Shown here: positions 4,026 to 63,424 of the stretch, one piece after another
Position numbering within the stretch: the stretch's first letter is position 1
How the letters are laid out: every line of letters starts with the position of its first letter
Assembly (NCBI GenBank): GCA_000004985.1
Contig: GG738865.1
Reading direction: 5' to 3' (one strand)
DNA: 64,000 nt
Origin: Naegleria gruberi
Taxonomy: Eukaryota
Made by a program: the position numbers and the translations under genes
The notes under the pieces: model-generated
Told to the model about the DNA's origin: nothing
The model's input: the letters and a program-made list of their open reading frames with translations, nothing else
Databases searched by the model: none

Positions 4026-4037
4026 TTTGGCGCCAAC
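4026..4037. promoter_or_regulatory. E2F-like palindromic element TTTGGCGCCAAC in the shared divergent promoter of the two ABCG genes.
   Basis: The exact 11-mer TTTGGCGCCAA is one of three copies in the window, all in 5' intergenic DNA. It matches the E2F consensus TTTSGCGC and sits in otherwise AT-rich spacer. Confidence 0.4.
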
Positions 4038-4266
4038 AATTTTCACTGAATATTCGAGTTCTTGGTAAGCAACTGCTTATCACACAATCTTCTTGTCATA
4101 CGTTGAACGGTAAATAGTTCATCATCAAAGTTTCGAATAAGTTTTCCCAACACAAAGTAACTTTCAAAGAAACTTTCAACAAAAAAATGTCAAACAACAA
4201 CTCTCAAACACTCTTTCGTCTTGGCCTTCTTCCACAGAATTATCCACTCAGTGGAATGCCTTCTGT

Positions 4267-7200
4267 GTGGTGCCAATTTCAATCTTGATTTTATGTTTCG
4301 TCATGTTGACGAGTTCATTAGTTTTTGGCTTTAGAAATATGATTCAATTTCCAAAACAACAAAAGAAGAGAAAGGAATTGAATAGAAAGGCGACTGTTGG
4401 TAATTTGAATAGTGATAAAGGTGATATGAGAAATGTTAGTGCTAATTCGTTTGTATTCGAAAGTGAAATGATTAGTTTGGGAAGAGAAGAGCAAGAACCT
4501 AATACTTTTGAACAATTGGGATCTATCGGATTGAATATTTTGAAAAAGACTGAAGAAAAACCAAGTACCACCTCATCAATTAATCAACCAATTCAGGTTG
4601 AAATTAGTAGAAACCTTTCGTCTTCCTCTGTGATGAATTCTTCAATGAAAAATCTCAAGACCATCAATACTACACCAGTTAGTTCACCTAATTTTTGGTC
4701 TCTCTACACTCCTCTTATCATTCTAATCACAATTTTATTAATTCTCTCCTTAATTTGCATCTGTATTGTAACAGCAATTTCAATTTACCAAGTTGACTAT
4801 TTAACACAAAATATTCAAACATTTAATTTAGACAATTCACATCCTGAATGGACAAACACAAGAACCATGACTGAATCTTACGGATCCACCAAGACATACA
4901 CTGAAACTCTTATCCAATTGACTTCATCTCAACAATCCAAAGCTCTCTATGGGTTGTACTCTGCCAATTCAACACTCCGCATTCTCCTCTTCAAGAATCA
5001 AAGCTTATATGATGAGTTTGATACATCCAACTCTATTAATTACTACTCTTCTGATGTAAAGGAGATTAACAAGACGAAACAGGGTGTTATTTTGAATTCA
5101 TGGAAATTGTGGAATGGAAATTCAGATTCAAGCTCACAACAAACATTTCATTTGTTAATTCAGGTGGAGAATTCATCATCTGCTTATGAAGCAATATTCC
5201 ACTTGATTGTTGAGGATGAAAACTATTCAAATGCTTCAAACTTTTTAGTTTTTGTGTGGATTTTAATTTTGGAAATTTTAGTGTGTTTGATAGTTTCGAA
5301 TCAAATTTACTTGTCAATGATTTCTTACGATCCAACCAATAAGCAACTTTTCATTAGTGAGTGGACATCTCCTTTTACATTTTTCTCGTGTAAGAAAGAA
5401 TCAGAAAGTGAAATTTCATCAAAGAAAGATGTTACAATAGAATTTAAGAATTTGAGTTTTCACAGTTTTGAGGGAAAACGAATTTTGAATAATATTTCAG
5501 GAAGAATTGAATCAGGAAAGTTGACAGCCGTGATGGGTTCAACAGGGAGTGGTAAATCAAGTTTCTTAACTGTGCTGAGTAAGAGAGCTCACTATGGAGT
5601 TCAAGAAGGAGAAATTAAACTAAATGGACGAATTCTTACAGAAAGTTTAAAGAAGGCCATTGGTTTTGTCCCTCAAGATGACATTATGATCTCAAGTTTA
5701 CAAATCTGGGAAACTCTTATGTTCAGTTCCATCTACCGATCCATGACATCATTATTCTTTCCCCTGTTTCGAAAGGTCAAAGAAACTGCCGAAATGTTAA
5801 ACATTCGCCACAAACTCTTCAGTACCATTGGTGATGTCAACAAGAAAGTCCTCAGTGGTGGAGAAAAGAAACGTCTCAATGTAGGCATTGAAATAATCAA
5901 CGAATGTCAGGTCCTCCTCCTCGACGAACCAACAAGTGGCCTGGACAGTAAGCAAGCTCTTTTGTTGTGTAAAATTCTGGCCCAGAAAACAAAGAATGAA
6001 GGGTTGAATGTTATTTGCGTGATTCATCAGCCATCTGCTGAGATTTATGAAATGTTTGATGATTTGATATTGTTTAGGAATGGTGAGATGATTGCTCATG
6101 GAGATGCCAAGCAGATTGCAAGTAAATGTGCGAAGGATATTTTGCAAATTTCAGATAATTTTGAAAAGCAAGACGAAAGTGAGGGAAAGGAGAGTGAGGA
6201 GTATAATAATCCTGGAGATTGTGTGATTGCTGCCATGGATATAATGACAGCAGAACAGCAACAGGAACTGATTAGGATTCAACCCTCCCTCAGTAAGTTT
6301 AAACTTGATAAGGGTGGATATCAAAATGAAATGTCAAATTTCATTCCTGTTCCAAATGTGCCATTCTACATTCAAGGATTGGCATTCTTATTCAGAGGAG
6401 TACTCCAAATCTTCCATGAATTCTCATCATTTGCCACTGATCTCCTCATTAACACAATTAGTGGAATTTTCATTGGCGCCATTTTTGTTGGAAGTTTAAA
6501 TTATAATGGTCAGAGTACTGAAGAAATTGCAAAGAAATGCCCAACTTATCTCTACTCGACATGTTCCCAGGCACAAGAGGATGATATTTCTGCATTTATT
6601 AGTATTTTGGTTCTTTCGATTAGTTTATCTTCAATACTGAGCTCTTTGAGTATTTTTGGAAGGGATAAGGTTGTGTTTCGTAGAGAATCTCAAAGTGGAC
6701 TCAATTCATTGGTTTACTTTTTGGTGAAGGATGTGATGGCATTTATTCCAATTAGTTTGGCTTCATTCTTTTTCACAATTTCTAGTTATTATTTGGCTAG
6801 TCCAAAAGGATCGCTGGTTGACTATTTTAAACTGAACTTTCTGATAACTGCCACAACTTATCCGATTGGATATATCATTTCCATAGCGATGAGGACTGAG
6901 ATCTCTCAGATCGCTTCTGGCTTAGTTGTGTTCGTTGTGTATTTATTCTCCGGTGTAACTCCAACTATTCCTGAAATAAGTAGTTTCTATTTTCCTTATT
7001 CCTGGCTTCCACACTTTTCCTTTTTGAGATATGCAAATGAGATATTATACTTGAATGAGTTGAAAAATTATTCATCCTACGGCAAGAGTGTTGAGTCGAA
7101 AGGTTACATTATGGAAATGATTGATGTGAATATGATGTTCATGGTTTCGTTTGCTTTCTTTTTCCATATTTTGGCAGCTGTTGTGTTGTGGCAATCTGTA

Positions 7201-60772: not shown

Positions 60773-63036
60773 TTACTCTAAGACTGCCAAAACAGCTTCA
60801 CCTTGAACGAGGTCACCAATAGCATATGGTAAACTCTTGATAACACCATCCTTAGTGGCCAAAATCTTGTGTTCCATCTTCATGGCTTCCATTGCAAGGA
60901 TAGTATCACCCTTTGAAACCTTATCTCCTTCCTTAACCATGACAGCTGTAATTTTACCTGGCATTGGACTCTTCAATGATCCCATAGCTGGACCACCCTT
61001 TTGTTCGAAAGCAGCCAAAACTGGAACAATTTCATATCTTTGACCATCTCTTGTGAAGAGGTAAATTGTCTTTTGGTCGTGACTAAAAGCAAGGGTTGAG
61101 TGGAATTTTCTGCCATCAACAGAAGCAACAATTTCCTTAGTAGTAGCATCATAAGAACCACTAACAACATGGCTATTCTTACCAATCTTCATGACAAATT
61201 TGCTAGTTGTTTGTGGATCCCACACATGTTCAACATTGACAGAAACAATTTGATCTTTGTGGTGTGGATGGTGGAATTCAAAGTTTTCATCGTGATTGTG
61301 ATTGAATCTGAGACCTTTGAGTTGATCGAATGGATCGCTTGAACGCTTAGTTTGTCTATCATTCTTGACAATCAATGAGAGAGTGGACAACAAGAAGACA
61401 GAATCATCAATCTTCTTTTCAGGGAAGAGTTCACTATAATACTTTTGAATAAAGTGAGTTTCCAATTCAGTGACATTCTTAAATCTTTCATTGGTGGCCA
61501 ATCTGATAAGGAATTCAATATTTGTATTCAAACCAGAAATGTGATATCTGTGGAGACAAGAAACCAATTTACGGAGAGCCAATTCTCTGTTTTCGCCCCA
61601 AACAACAAGTTTAGCAATCATTGGATCATAGTAAATGGAAACTTCATCACCTTGTCTGACACCAGTTTCAACTCTGACTTCTCCTGGAATTTCTTCTGGA
61701 GGACTCAAATAACGCAATGTACCAGTACCTGGCAAGAAGTTATTTTCTGGATTTTCAGCATAGATACGAGCTTCGAAAGCATGACCAGTTCTCTTCAATT
61801 CGTTTTGGAGAAGTGGTAATCTATTTCCAGAAGCAACTTGAAGTTGCCATTCAACCAAATCTTGACCAGTAATCATTTCAGTAACTGGATGTTCAACTTG
61901 AAGTCTAGTATTCATTTCCATAAAGTAATAACTATTATCAGCATTGTCCATAATAAATTCGACAGTACCAGCACCAACATATCCAACAGCTCTGGCAGCA
62001 TCTACAGCACTTTCACCCATAGCTCTTCTGACTTCATCTGCCAAACCTGGTGCAGGAGCTTCTTCAATAATCTTTTGATGTCTTCTTTGAACTGAACAAT
62101 CTCTTTCAAACAAGTAAACACAATTTCCGTGAGTATCAGCAAAAACTTGAATTTCAATGTGACGTGGTGTTTGAATATATTTTTCAATTAAAACTCTGTC
62201 ATCACCAAATGAAGCTTTAGCTTCACGTTTAGCAGAAGAGAGAGCTTCTTTGAATTCCTTTTCACTGTGGGCAAGCTTCATACCTTTACCACCACCTCCC
62301 AAGACAGCTTTAATCAAAATTGGGAAACCAATTTTCTTTGCTTCTTCCAATAATTTGTCTTCACCTTGTTCATCTCCGTGATAACCTGGCACAACAGGTA
62401 CTTTGGCATGTTCCATAATCTTTTTACTTTCACTCTTTGATCCCATTGAAATAATAGCTCCTTCTGGTGGTCCAATAAAAACAACACCATTCTTGGCACA
62501 GAGACTGGCAAATTTAGCATTTTCTGACAAGAAACCATAACCAGGGTGAATAGCTTGAGCTCCACATTGTTTGGCAATTTCAAGAATTTTATCACCACAC
62601 AAGTATGATTTGCTTGATTCTGGTGGACCTAACAAGTAGGCTTCATCAGCCATAGCTACGTGCATAGAATTGGCATCGGCTTCACTATAAACAGCAACAG
62701 TTTTAATACCAAGCTTTCTTGCTGTTTTCATAACTCTACAGGCAATTTCACCTCTGTTGGCAATCAAGATTTTATCAAAGAGTGGTTTCTTGTTTTGTTC
62801 ATTGCAAAGTCTGCTGCTGATGATGATTGTGATGTGAGTTGTTGATTCATAATTGTATGAAAATATTTCTTTCCGCATAATGATGATGATGAAACGATCA
62901 TATTTTGTCTCTTATTAGAGAATGAAGATGACTTATTGGCGGCAATAGAATTGGCTGCAACTACACTGGTTGATAAAGCAGCACCAACATTTTTACGGAT
63001 CGATTTTGATTGCTTCAAGCTGTTACGAAGGAGCAT
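60773..63036 (-). CDS. MCCC1: Methylcrotonoyl-CoA carboxylase alpha subunit (biotin carboxylase + BCCP), mitochondrial precursor. The main ORF 60773..62878 is in frame. The presequence exon starting at ATG 63036 is in a different frame, so an intron (candidate 62789..62964) or a one-base frameshift is needed to link it.
   Basis: KILIANRGEIACRVMKTARKLGIKTVAVYSEADANSMHVAMADEAY and the biotin carboxylase ATP-grasp core match MCCC1 better than propionyl-CoA carboxylase alpha. The C-terminal biotinyl domain has the EAMKM attachment motif. Upstream ORF 62764..63036 starts at an A-run ATG (AAAAAAAATG) and encodes a textbook amphipathic presequence, MLLRNSLKQSKSIRKNVGAALSTSVVAANSIAANK. Confidence 0.85.
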
Positions 63037-63411
63037 TTTTTTTGTAAGTTTTGGCTCAGATTTTCATCACAAACAATAAACAATGCAAAATGGTAATGAC
63101 AAACATTAATTGTTTGTTGATGAAGATAATATTCATGAAATGGAAAGAAGTAATGATACGGACTGTGGAATGTAAACTGCAACGATGATGAGCATGTTGT
63201 TCTTTTGCGATTATCGAGTAGTAACAGGAGTGGGACGGTATTCCTTACTTTTGAAAGTCCATTGTGCGGACAGTGGACATAGAAACAGTTTTGCTGTAAT
63301 TGAATTTTGTTTTGAGTGAAAGTTCCATTGAAAAACTAGTTGGCCAAAACTCCAATTGATGAAAATAGCTTACATTCAGCTGGTGTTCGACTCATCACTC
63401 GAATTAAAACA

Positions 63412-63424
63412 TTTGGCGCCAAAA
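63412..63424. promoter_or_regulatory. Perfect palindromic E2F-type site TTTGGCGCCAAAA, 15 bp upstream of the RPA70-like gene's ATG.
   Basis: The third exact copy of TTTGGCGCCAA in the window. It is positioned like the E2F sites of animal and plant DNA-replication genes. Confidence 0.45.

What the first reader, a model, noticed from the sequence alone, without database searches (positions are those of the whole stretch)
4026..63424. The 11-mer TTTGGCGCCAA (E2F-type palindrome) recurs in three promoters, including the RPA70-like gene
TTTGGCGCCAA occurs at 4026..4036, 7667..7677 and 63412..63422. In about one-third-GC DNA a specific 11-mer with 6 G/C is expected far less than once in 128 kb of two-strand sequence. 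All three copies lie in 5' intergenic DNA, 15-275 bp from start codons. The 7667 copy is directly preceded by GGCGGGAAAA, the reverse complement of TTTTCCCGCC, a second canonical E2F half-site. The 63412 copy is a perfect palindrome (TTTGGCGCCAAA) 15 bp upstream of a replication protein A gene. RPA is a classic E2F/DP target in animals and plants. This suggests a conserved E2F/DP-like cell-cycle cis-element in this protist. It also suggests that the coiled-coil/IQ gene (7718) and the ABCG pair are S-phase or proliferation regulated.
Basis: partly seen in the sequence, partly recalled or inferred. Interest (0 to 1): 0.6.

Follow-up and report, generated by a model that had tools for sequence, protein, structure and literature searches.

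The report
Predicted E2F sites in Naegleria promoters
A short GC-rich palindrome that recurs just upstream of several genes in this Naegleria gruberi segment is most likely the binding site of the E2F/DP cell-cycle transcription factor, an expected element not yet described in this amoeba.

Summary
TTTGGCGCCAA occurs at 4026, 7667 and 63412 and nowhere else, which is far more than chance allows. The window is Naegleria gruberi.

- **Promoter bias.** The E2F consensus TTTSSCGC has 5 intergenic loci against 0.16 expected, and only 1 in 57.8 kb of genic DNA. Sub-words of the motif are the most over-represented intergenic 6-, 7- and 8-mers.
- **Extra sites.** TTGGCGGGAAAA abuts the 7667 copy. TTTTCCCGCC lies 38 bp before an axonemal outer-arm dynein gene. 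A weaker site lies 60 bp before the MCCC1 gene.
- **The factor exists.** N. gruberi encodes E2F, DP, an E2F7/8-type protein and Rb. Its E2F DNA-binding domain is close to human E2F4.
- **A correction.** The gene 15 bp after the perfect palindrome belongs to the RADX family, not RPA70.
- **Conservation.** RADX orthologues in N. lovaniensis and in an uncultured relative keep an E2F-like site within 100 bp of the start codon. N. fowleri does not.

The E2F reading is therefore well supported in silico. Binding, cell-cycle regulation and genome-wide enrichment remain untested. This is a new member of a known kind, of modest interest.

The parts
4026..4037 (.). E2F-like site TTTGGCGCCAAC in the divergent intergenic region of the ABCG pair
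   Evidence: It is intergenic, about 150-275 bp from the ABCG-B start and 253 bp from the ABCG-A ATG.
7654..7665 (-). E2F-like site TTGGCGGGAAAA (minus strand TTTTCCCGCCAA), one base from the next site
7667..7678 (.). E2F-like site TTTGGCGCCAAT, ending 40 nt before the ATG of the coiled-coil/IQ gene
21812..21825 (+). E2F-like site TTTTCCCGCCCAAT, 38 bp before the ATG of the axonemal outer-arm dynein heavy chain and 334 bp from the divergent LeuRS ATG
62935..62946 (-). Weaker E2F-like site ATTGGCGGCAAT (minus strand TTGCCGCC), 60 bp before the MCCC1 ATG. It is not conserved in N. lovaniensis.
63412..63423 (.). Perfect palindromic E2F-like site TTTGGCGCCAAA, ending 15 nt before the ATG of the RADX-like gene
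   Evidence: It is identical in a 99%-identical metagenome contig, L001.
63439..64000 (+). 5' part of the RADX-family gene NAEGRDRAFT_67012 (cut by the window end), with one 44-nt intron
   Evidence: Pfam RADX PF17659, 1.4e-15 and above the curated cut-off. PDB 8u5y RADX, 6.8e-12.
7718..10548 (+). Coiled-coil protein with a C-terminal IQ-like motif (928 aa, one 44-nt intron at 8858-8901). Function unknown.
   Evidence: No Pfam or PDB relative was found.
21851..35735 (+). Axonemal outer-arm dynein heavy chain (DNAH5/gamma-like)
599..3773 (-). ABCG-type transporter A
4187..7305 (+). ABCG-type transporter B (the 5' end of the model is uncertain)
60773..62878 (-). Methylcrotonyl-CoA carboxylase alpha. 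It is 100% identical to the N. gruberi protein, which identifies the organism.

Best explanation
The TTTGGCGCCAA(A) copies and the related TTTTCCCGCC-type sites are binding sites for the Naegleria gruberi E2F-DP heterodimer. The two-domain E2F7/8-like protein DEL may bind the same sequence. The sites lie a few tens of bp upstream of start codons, so probably at or near transcription start sites. From there they would couple transcription of the downstream gene to Rb/E2F status: active in proliferating or G1/S cells, repressed otherwise.

Shown here:
- the sequence match and the statistical excess;
- the promoter-proximal bias;
- the existence of the factors, with DNA-binding domains confirmed for E2F and DP;
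- partial evolutionary retention at one orthologous promoter.

Inferred, not shown: physical binding, the direction of regulation, and which of E2F/DP or DEL acts at each site.
For: 1. Exact 11-mer at three loci. No copies in 100 shuffles. After allowing for multiple testing, P is about 0.01.
2. The a-priori consensus TTTSSCGC has 5 intergenic loci against 0.16 expected from intergenic dinucleotide composition (0 of 2000 simulations reach 5). There is 1 locus in 57.8 kb of genic DNA.
3. In an unbiased screen, CGCCAA, GGCGCCA and GGCGCCAA are the most over-represented intergenic 6-, 7- and 8-mers.
4. The sites are not part of a longer repeat.
5. The organism is N. gruberi. The supplement of Medina et al. 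2016 (PMC4862756) lists NgruE2F, NgruDP, NgruDEL and NgruRB.
6. NgruE2F and NgruDP hit Pfam E2F_TDP at 1.3e-28 and 1.8e-18. The NgruE2F DNA-binding domain aligns with the human E2F4 domain crystallised on DNA (1cf7_A, 7.3e-25). The stretch [23 protein letters not shown] is identical.
7. The gene after the perfect palindrome is a RADX homologue. In human cells RADX regulates RAD51 and replication-fork stability.
8. Its orthologues carry TGTTGGCGCCTTT 81 bp upstream in N. lovaniensis and ATTCCCGCCAAT 41 bp upstream in an uncultured relative. In 92.6 kb of relatives' DNA only 4 TTSSCGCS hits exist. The chance of at least 2 of 3 orthologous promoters having one within 100 bp is 6e-5 to 5e-4.
Against: - No binding or expression data exist for any of these genes.
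- Only one of the four or five site-bearing promoters drives a recognisable replication gene. The others are an ABCG transporter pair, an unknown coiled-coil protein, an axonemal dynein and possibly MCCC1.
- N. fowleri has no E2F-like site in the roughly 100-bp intergenic region before its RADX orthologue.
- Neither conserved orthologue site meets the strict TTTSSCGC consensus. They match only TTSSCGCS.
- The MCCC1 site is not conserved in N. lovaniensis.
- The one canonical repair gene seen in a relative, a MutS-family gene in Willaertia, has only a 7-of-8 match, TTTTGGCGA.
Confidence: 0.7

Rival explanations
1. The sites are functional promoter elements bound by a factor other than E2F/DP. 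Candidates are an NF-Y-type CCAAT-binding complex, since several sites end in CCAAT, or a lineage-specific dimeric factor that recognises the TTGGC|GCCAA palindrome.
For: - Four of eight sites contain CCAAT: 7667, 21812, 62935 (reverse strand) and L005:1146.
- CGCCAA is the single most enriched intergenic hexamer.
- The three copies are identical over 11 bp, which is more than the 8-bp degenerate E2F consensus requires.
Against: - The shared core across all sites is SSCGCC flanked by T or A runs, not CCAAT. The perfect palindrome at 63412, the 4026 copy and the N. lovaniensis site all lack CCAAT.
- From my own knowledge rather than a test here: TTTSGCGCSAAA is the reported optimal E2F-DP site, and NFI, which uses TTGGC half-sites with a 5-bp spacer, is animal-specific.
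- RFX is reported absent from Naegleria (PMC12183034).
- A suitable E2F/DP pair with conserved DNA-contact residues is present.
Confidence: 0.12
2. The sites are E2F-family sites, but part of the regulon is the amoeba-to-flagellate differentiation programme (basal-body and axoneme genes) rather than S phase. An E2F/DP-Rb or DEL complex would switch these genes on or off when cells leave the cycle.
For: - TTTTCCCGCC lies 38 bp before the ATG of an axonemal outer-arm dynein heavy chain.
- Three of the four outer-arm dyneins of N. gruberi are reported as differentiation-specific (PMC10802493).
- Naegleria lacks RFX, FOXJ1 and XAP5, and the regulators of its cilia genes are unknown (PMC12183034).
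- In vertebrate multiciliated cells E2F4/5 with MCIDAS or GEMC1 drive centriole and cilia genes (same review).
Against: - This rests on a single promoter, and its conservation could not be tested.
- I do not know whether this particular dynein is among the three induced ones.
- The TPR/zf-MYND gene at 42080-44392, which might be flagellar though I could not assign it, has no site in its upstream region.
- The RADX-like gene fits a replication role better.
Confidence: 0.1
3. The recurrence has no function. It is chance, or a by-product of CpG-richer, less methylated intergenic DNA in a CpG-depleted genome.
For: - CpG observed/expected is 0.72 in intergenic DNA against 0.36 in genic DNA, so any CpG-containing word is somewhat favoured between genes.
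- Many 11-mers recur 3 or more times in the window.
- N. fowleri lacks the site.
Against: - The expectation of 0.16 was computed from intergenic dinucleotide frequencies, so it already includes the CpG effect. Five loci are observed.
- Only 6 of the 97 intergenic CpGs lie in these sites, yet no other CpG word is enriched.
- The site is retained in two other lineages whose intergenic DNA could not be aligned by MAFFT.
Confidence: 0.05

Closest known systems
E2F/DP binding sites (TTTSSCGC; palindromic optimum TTTSGCGCSAAA) of animal and plant G1/S promoters
   Same: - Same core sequence, including the palindromic form and the TTTCCCGCC form.
- Promoter-proximal position close to the start of the gene.
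- Paired adjacent sites at 7654-7678.
- A replication-fork gene among the targets.
- The organism has E2F, DP, an E2F7/8-type protein and Rb.
   Different: - No binding or cell-cycle expression evidence.
- Most site-bearing genes here are not classical G1/S genes.
- The organism is a heterolobosean in which no cis-regulatory element of this kind turned up in the searchable literature.
E2F7/E2F8 (DEL) repressor sites (TTCCCGCCAAAA type)
   Same: TTTTCCCGCCAA (7654-7665, minus strand), TTTTCCCGCCCAAT (21812) and ATTCCCGCCAAT (L005) resemble this subtype. N. gruberi has a DEL-type protein with two DNA-binding domains.
   Different: Sequence alone cannot separate E2F-DP sites from E2F7/8 sites. 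The resemblance to the E2F7/8 optimum is from my own knowledge and was not tested here.
CCAAT box / NF-Y
   Same: Half of the sites end in CCAAT. From my own knowledge, CCAAT boxes often accompany E2F sites in animal cell-cycle promoters.
   Different: CCAAT is absent from the perfect palindrome and from two other sites. The invariant part is the GC core.
E2F4/5-MCIDAS control of multiciliogenesis genes in vertebrates
   Same: An E2F-type site lies directly upstream of a gene for a motile-cilium component, in an organism that builds basal bodies and flagella de novo.
   Different: Only one promoter is involved. MCIDAS and GEMC1 are vertebrate cofactors, and nothing shows that this promoter responds to E2F.

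Membership tests
E2F/DP cis-element | Sequence matches TTTSSCGC (optimum TTTSGCGCSAAA) | tested here: met
   4026, 7657(-), 7667, 21813 and 63412 match TTTSSCGC. 63412 matches the 12-bp palindromic optimum exactly.
E2F/DP cis-element | The organism encodes E2F and DP with intact winged-helix DNA-binding domains (RRXYD motif), plus an Rb pocket protein | tested here: met
   Sequences come from the supplement of PMC4862756. Pfam E2F_TDP, E2F_CC-MB and DP domains are present. The DNA-binding domain aligns to human E2F4 1cf7_A at 7.3e-25 with RRIYD conserved. Rb is listed in the paper but I did not re-check it.
E2F/DP cis-element | Enriched in promoter-proximal DNA | tested here: met
   Within this window only: 5 intergenic loci against 0.16 expected, and 1 in 57.8 kb of genic DNA. 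It is the top intergenic k-mer. Genome-wide enrichment was not testable.
E2F/DP cis-element | Associated with DNA-replication and G1/S genes | tested here: inconclusive
   One target is a RADX homologue. The others are ABCG transporters, an unknown coiled-coil protein, an axonemal dynein and MCCC1. MCM, PCNA and RNR promoters could not be reached.
E2F/DP cis-element | Retained at orthologous promoters | tested here: inconclusive
   At the RADX-like promoter a site is present in N. lovaniensis (-81) and in the uncultured relative L005 (-41). It is absent in N. fowleri. These sites match TTSSCGCS, not the strict TTTSSCGC. The MCCC1 site is not conserved. The other promoters could not be tested.
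E2F/DP cis-element | Bound by E2F/DP and conferring Rb-dependent, cell-cycle-dependent transcription | not testable with these tools
   Requires EMSA, DAP-seq or ChIP, plus synchronised expression data.
   Rep-A_N scores only 14.6-16.9 bits against a cut-off of 26.7. No other RPA70 domain appears among the precomputed Pfam hits of the full-length protein P0122.
RADX (RPA-related RAD51 antagonist) | Match to the Pfam RADX family above its curated cut-off, and to solved RADX | tested here: met
   PF17659 scores 56.7 bits against a cut-off of 33.4, E 1.4e-15, over profile positions 61-444 of 848. PDB 8u5y_B gives 6.8e-12. All four orthologues carry PF17659 and PF17008. The four-OB architecture and RAD51 antagonism were not tested.
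CCAAT box / NF-Y site | Invariant CCAAT pentamer in every site | tested here: not met
   CCAAT is present in 4 of 8 sites. It is absent at 4026, 63412, 7654-7665 and L003:9920.

The most novel reading that the evidence does not exclude
In Naegleria the single E2F/DP pair, or the E2F7/8-like DEL protein, may control more than replication genes. It may also control part of the amoeba-to-flagellate programme, as suggested by the TTTTCCCGCC site 38 bp before an axonemal outer-arm dynein gene. That would nominate a regulator for cilia genes in a lineage lacking RFX, FOXJ1 and XAP5. It would also suggest that the E2F-ciliogenesis link seen in vertebrate multiciliated cells is ancient or convergent.
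Probability: 0.1. Interest if true: 0.7.

Novelty: new member of a known kind. Interest (0 to 1): 0.35.

Why it matters
I found no described cis-regulatory element for Naegleria in the searchable literature, and promoter or transcription-factor analysis is absent from its recent transcriptome work. A recognisable E2F site with the matching E2F/DP/Rb machinery would do three things.
- It would give a concrete, testable handle on cell-cycle transcription in a heterolobosean.
- It would add a deep-branching data point to the view that the E2F-Rb circuit and its DNA motif date back to the last eukaryotic common ancestor (PMC4862756).
- It would offer a promoter element for building regulated expression tools.

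The element itself is what one would predict, so the gain is incremental unless the link to flagellar genes proves real.

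Tried and rejected
- **Fetching the N. gruberi assembly.** I tried to get the contig around the window to count the motif more widely. Exact look-ups of the MCCC1 protein found no record.
- **Synteny through MCCC1.** The N. lovaniensis copy L002, Willaertia L006 and an ENA contig L007 contain no RADX-like gene. 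Only the direct RADX homologue look-ups worked.
- **Metagenome scans.** Conservation of the dynein, coiled-coil and ABCG sites therefore stayed untested.
- **Function of the coiled-coil/IQ protein.** There was no Pfam family, no PDB relative and no exact database record.
- **Expression data.** Fritz-Laylin & Cande 2010 and Kennard et al. 2025 are not held under the PMC ids I tried. The locus tag appears in no held paper.
- **Rfam and tRNA scans.** Nothing was found in the window.
- **Rejected readings.** A repeated or mobile element, because the flanks are dissimilar. RPA70 identity for the downstream gene. A general CpG-island effect. NFI or RFX sites, because the half-sites or spacing are wrong and the factors are absent or animal-specific.

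Full report
**Observation**

TTTGGCGCCAA occurs at 4026, 7667 and 63412. The last copy also reads on the minus strand, because it is the 12-bp palindrome TTTGGCGCCAAA. None of 100 dinucleotide-preserving shuffles produced a single copy. The looser TTSSCGCS gives 11 strand hits against 0.73 expected.

A post-hoc 11-mer invites a multiple-testing objection, so I counted all recurrent 11-mers.
- 347 strand-collapsed 11-mers occur at 3 or more separate loci.
- Six of them have at least 6 G/C.
- Only this one contains a CpG.
- In 100 first-order Markov simulations of the window, a CpG-containing 11-mer of that kind appeared in 1% of cases.

The recurrence is therefore real, though less extreme than the single-word expectation suggests.

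**Organism and gene map**

The 701-aa ORF at 60773-62878 (minus strand) is 100% identical to methylcrotonyl-CoA carboxylase of Naegleria gruberi. The nearest relatives are N. lovaniensis (88%), Willaertia magna (77%) and Acrasis kona (62%).

ORFs and Pfam hits give about 20 genes with few, roughly 44-nt introns:
- a divergent ABCG pair (599-3773 minus; about 4187-7305 plus);
- a 928-aa coiled-coil protein with an IQ-like motif (7718-10548);
- a fatty-acid desaturase;
- a filamin/IpgD-like protein;
- LeuRS;
- a dynein heavy chain (21851-35735);
- PheRS-alpha, a RasGEF and Yip1;
- a TPR/zf-MYND protein;
- a lipase, mitochondrial EF-G, an EGF/jacalin protein and WS/DGAT;
- U1-70K, MCCC1, and the gene starting at 63439.

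Intergenic DNA is about 5.6 kb, 8.9% of the window. Its GC content is 31%, against 35.5% in genes.

**The gene after the palindrome is RADX-like, not RPA70**

The window ends inside this gene. A 99%-identical metagenome contig (L001) extends it. The extended protein gives these scores:

| Comparison | Result |
|---|---|
| Pfam RADX (PF17659) | E 1.4e-15, 56.7 bits, cut-off 33.4 |
| Human RADX, PDB 8u5y | E 6.8e-12 |
| Pfam Rep-A_N | 14.6-16.9 bits, cut-off 26.7 |

The annotated N. gruberi protein is NAEGRDRAFT_67012 (XP_002677688.1). It starts at the same ATG, 63439. Like its orthologues, it carries PF17659 and PF17008.

**Are the sites promoter elements?**

The a-priori consensus TTTSSCGC has six loci in the window. 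Five are intergenic:

| Position | Nearest start codon(s) |
|---|---|
| 4026 | ABCG pair, about -160 and -253 |
| 7657 (minus) | coiled-coil gene, -61 |
| 7667 | coiled-coil gene, -51 |
| 21813 | dynein, -38; LeuRS, -334 |
| 63412 | RADX-like, -27 |

The sixth locus (2414) is genic. Simulations using intergenic dinucleotide frequencies expect 0.16 intergenic loci. None of 2000 simulations reached 5.

In an unbiased screen of all 6-, 7- and 8-mers, the most over-represented intergenic words are CGCCAA, GGCGCCA and GGCGCCAA. The remaining top words are AT-rich runs.

CpG is less depleted between genes (observed/expected 0.72) than within them (0.36). That difference is already built into the expectation. 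Only 6 of the 97 intergenic CpGs belong to these sites.

The three copies do not sit inside a longer repeat. Similarity stops within about 9 bp of the motif.

The site next to 7667 is a complete TTGGCGGGAAAA (7654-7665). The coiled-coil promoter therefore carries two sites one base apart. A weaker ATTGGCGGCAAT lies 60 bp before the MCCC1 ATG.

**Is the factor there?**

The supplement of Medina et al. 2016 (PMC4862756) contains N. gruberi E2F, DP, DEL (E2F7/8-type) and RB sequences. I checked two of them.
- NgruE2F hits Pfam E2F_TDP (1.3e-28) and E2F_CC-MB.
- NgruDP hits E2F_TDP (1.8e-18) and DP.
- The NgruE2F DNA-binding domain aligns to the human E2F4 domain solved on DNA (1cf7_A, 7.3e-25). 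The stretch [23 protein letters not shown] is identical.

A conserved TTTSSCGC specificity is thus the natural expectation.

**Conservation**

RADX-like orthologues were found in N. lovaniensis, N. fowleri and a JGI metagenome contig, at roughly 48-50% protein identity. Their loci were fetched.

| Lineage | Upstream of the RADX-like ATG |
|---|---|
| N. lovaniensis | TGTTGGCGCCTTT, 81 bp upstream, followed by ACAAATCAAAAAAAAT |
| N. gruberi (for comparison) | ACAAATTCAAAAAAAATG follows the site |
| Uncultured relative (L005) | ATTCCCGCCAAT, 41 bp upstream |
| N. fowleri | nothing comparable in its roughly 100-bp intergenic region |

Across 92.6 kb of relatives' DNA there are 12 TTSSCGC hits and 4 TTSSCGCS hits. 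The chance that at least 2 of 3 orthologous promoters carry one within 100 bp is 5e-4 and 6e-5 respectively.

Some caveats apply.
- Neither orthologue site satisfies the strict TTTSSCGC.
- The MCCC1 site is not conserved in N. lovaniensis.
- In Willaertia the two TTTCCCGC sites lie 19 bp and 77 bp upstream of start codons.
- A MutS-family gene in Willaertia has only TTTTGGCGA upstream.

**What the targets say**

Only the RADX-like gene is an obvious replication gene. The dynein is an axonemal outer-arm heavy chain; its best PDB matches are DNAH5 and the Chlamydomonas gamma chain. A Naegleria transcriptome study reports 3 of 4 outer-arm dyneins as differentiation-specific (PMC10802493). A recent review stresses that Naegleria lacks RFX, FOXJ1 and XAP5, so the regulators of its cilia genes are unknown (PMC12183034). 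This single promoter is the basis of the more novel reading that E2F-family factors touch the flagellate programme. I rate that as unlikely but not excluded.

**Verdict**

The best explanation is that these are E2F/DP sites, possibly also used by DEL, near transcription starts (confidence about 0.7). The rivals are:
- another factor, for example a CCAAT-binding complex; half the sites contain CCAAT but the palindrome does not;
- a differentiation-linked E2F regulon;
- no function.

E2F sites and the E2F-Rb circuit are known across eukaryotes, so this is a new member of a known kind. I found no paper describing such an element in Naegleria.

Three things could not be done: a genome-wide count, because the N. 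gruberi assembly was not retrievable; conservation tests for the other promoters, because both metagenome scans were empty; and any expression or binding test.

Noticed in passing
window 63439-64000, extended by L001; orthologues at L003:10001-12334, L004:10001-11674 and L005:1187-3315: A clear homologue of RADX (RPA-related RAD51 antagonist) is present in Naegleria gruberi, N. lovaniensis, N. fowleri and an uncultured relative. It scores above the Pfam RADX threshold and matches human RADX in the PDB. The RADX papers I read discuss only mammalian and other orthologues, so a heterolobosean RADX may be of interest for the origin of this family.
   Followed up: partly
window, whole: CpG is strongly depleted in gene bodies (observed/expected 0.36) and much less so in intergenic DNA (0.72). 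GpC is similar in both (0.80 and 0.85). From my own knowledge, Naegleria has a TET-like enzyme, so this would fit gene-body cytosine methylation. Codon usage was not excluded as a cause.
   Followed up: partly
window 21812-21825 and 21851-35735: An E2F-like site (TTTTCCCGCCCAAT) lies 38 bp upstream of an axonemal outer-arm dynein heavy chain gene. This is a flagellar gene in an organism that makes flagella only on differentiation.
   Followed up: partly
window 4026-4045 and 7667-7686: Two of the three copies share similarity beyond the 11-mer: TTTGGCGCCAAYAATTTWCA, 18 of 20 positions. This could be a slightly longer composite element or chance in AT-rich DNA.
   Followed up: no
window intergenic regions generally: AATAATA/AATAATAA-type words are the second most over-represented intergenic k-mers (20 copies against 3 expected). 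Most start codons are preceded by a run of A (for example CAAAAAAAATG). These may be core-promoter, polyadenylation or translation-context signals.
   Followed up: no
L002:10001-12319 and L003:13722-17438 (N. lovaniensis): N. lovaniensis has two contigs carrying MCCC1-like genes with U1-70K nearby. The L003 gene model (1107 aa) also lists a GmrSD_N domain hit. This suggests a duplication or haplotig, and possibly a fused gene model.
   Followed up: no
L001 (ENA metagenome ERZ929261) against window 63227-64000: An environmental metagenome contig is about 99% identical to this N. gruberi region, including the palindrome. A very close strain is therefore present in that sample.
   Followed up: no
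window 4187-4305: The A-rich-context ATG at 4187 opens a reading frame of only 33 codons, out of frame with the long ABCG ORF, whose first in-frame ATG is near 4303. The 5' end of the ABCG-B gene model is uncertain: it could be an upstream ORF, a missed intron or a long 5' UTR.
   Followed up: partly
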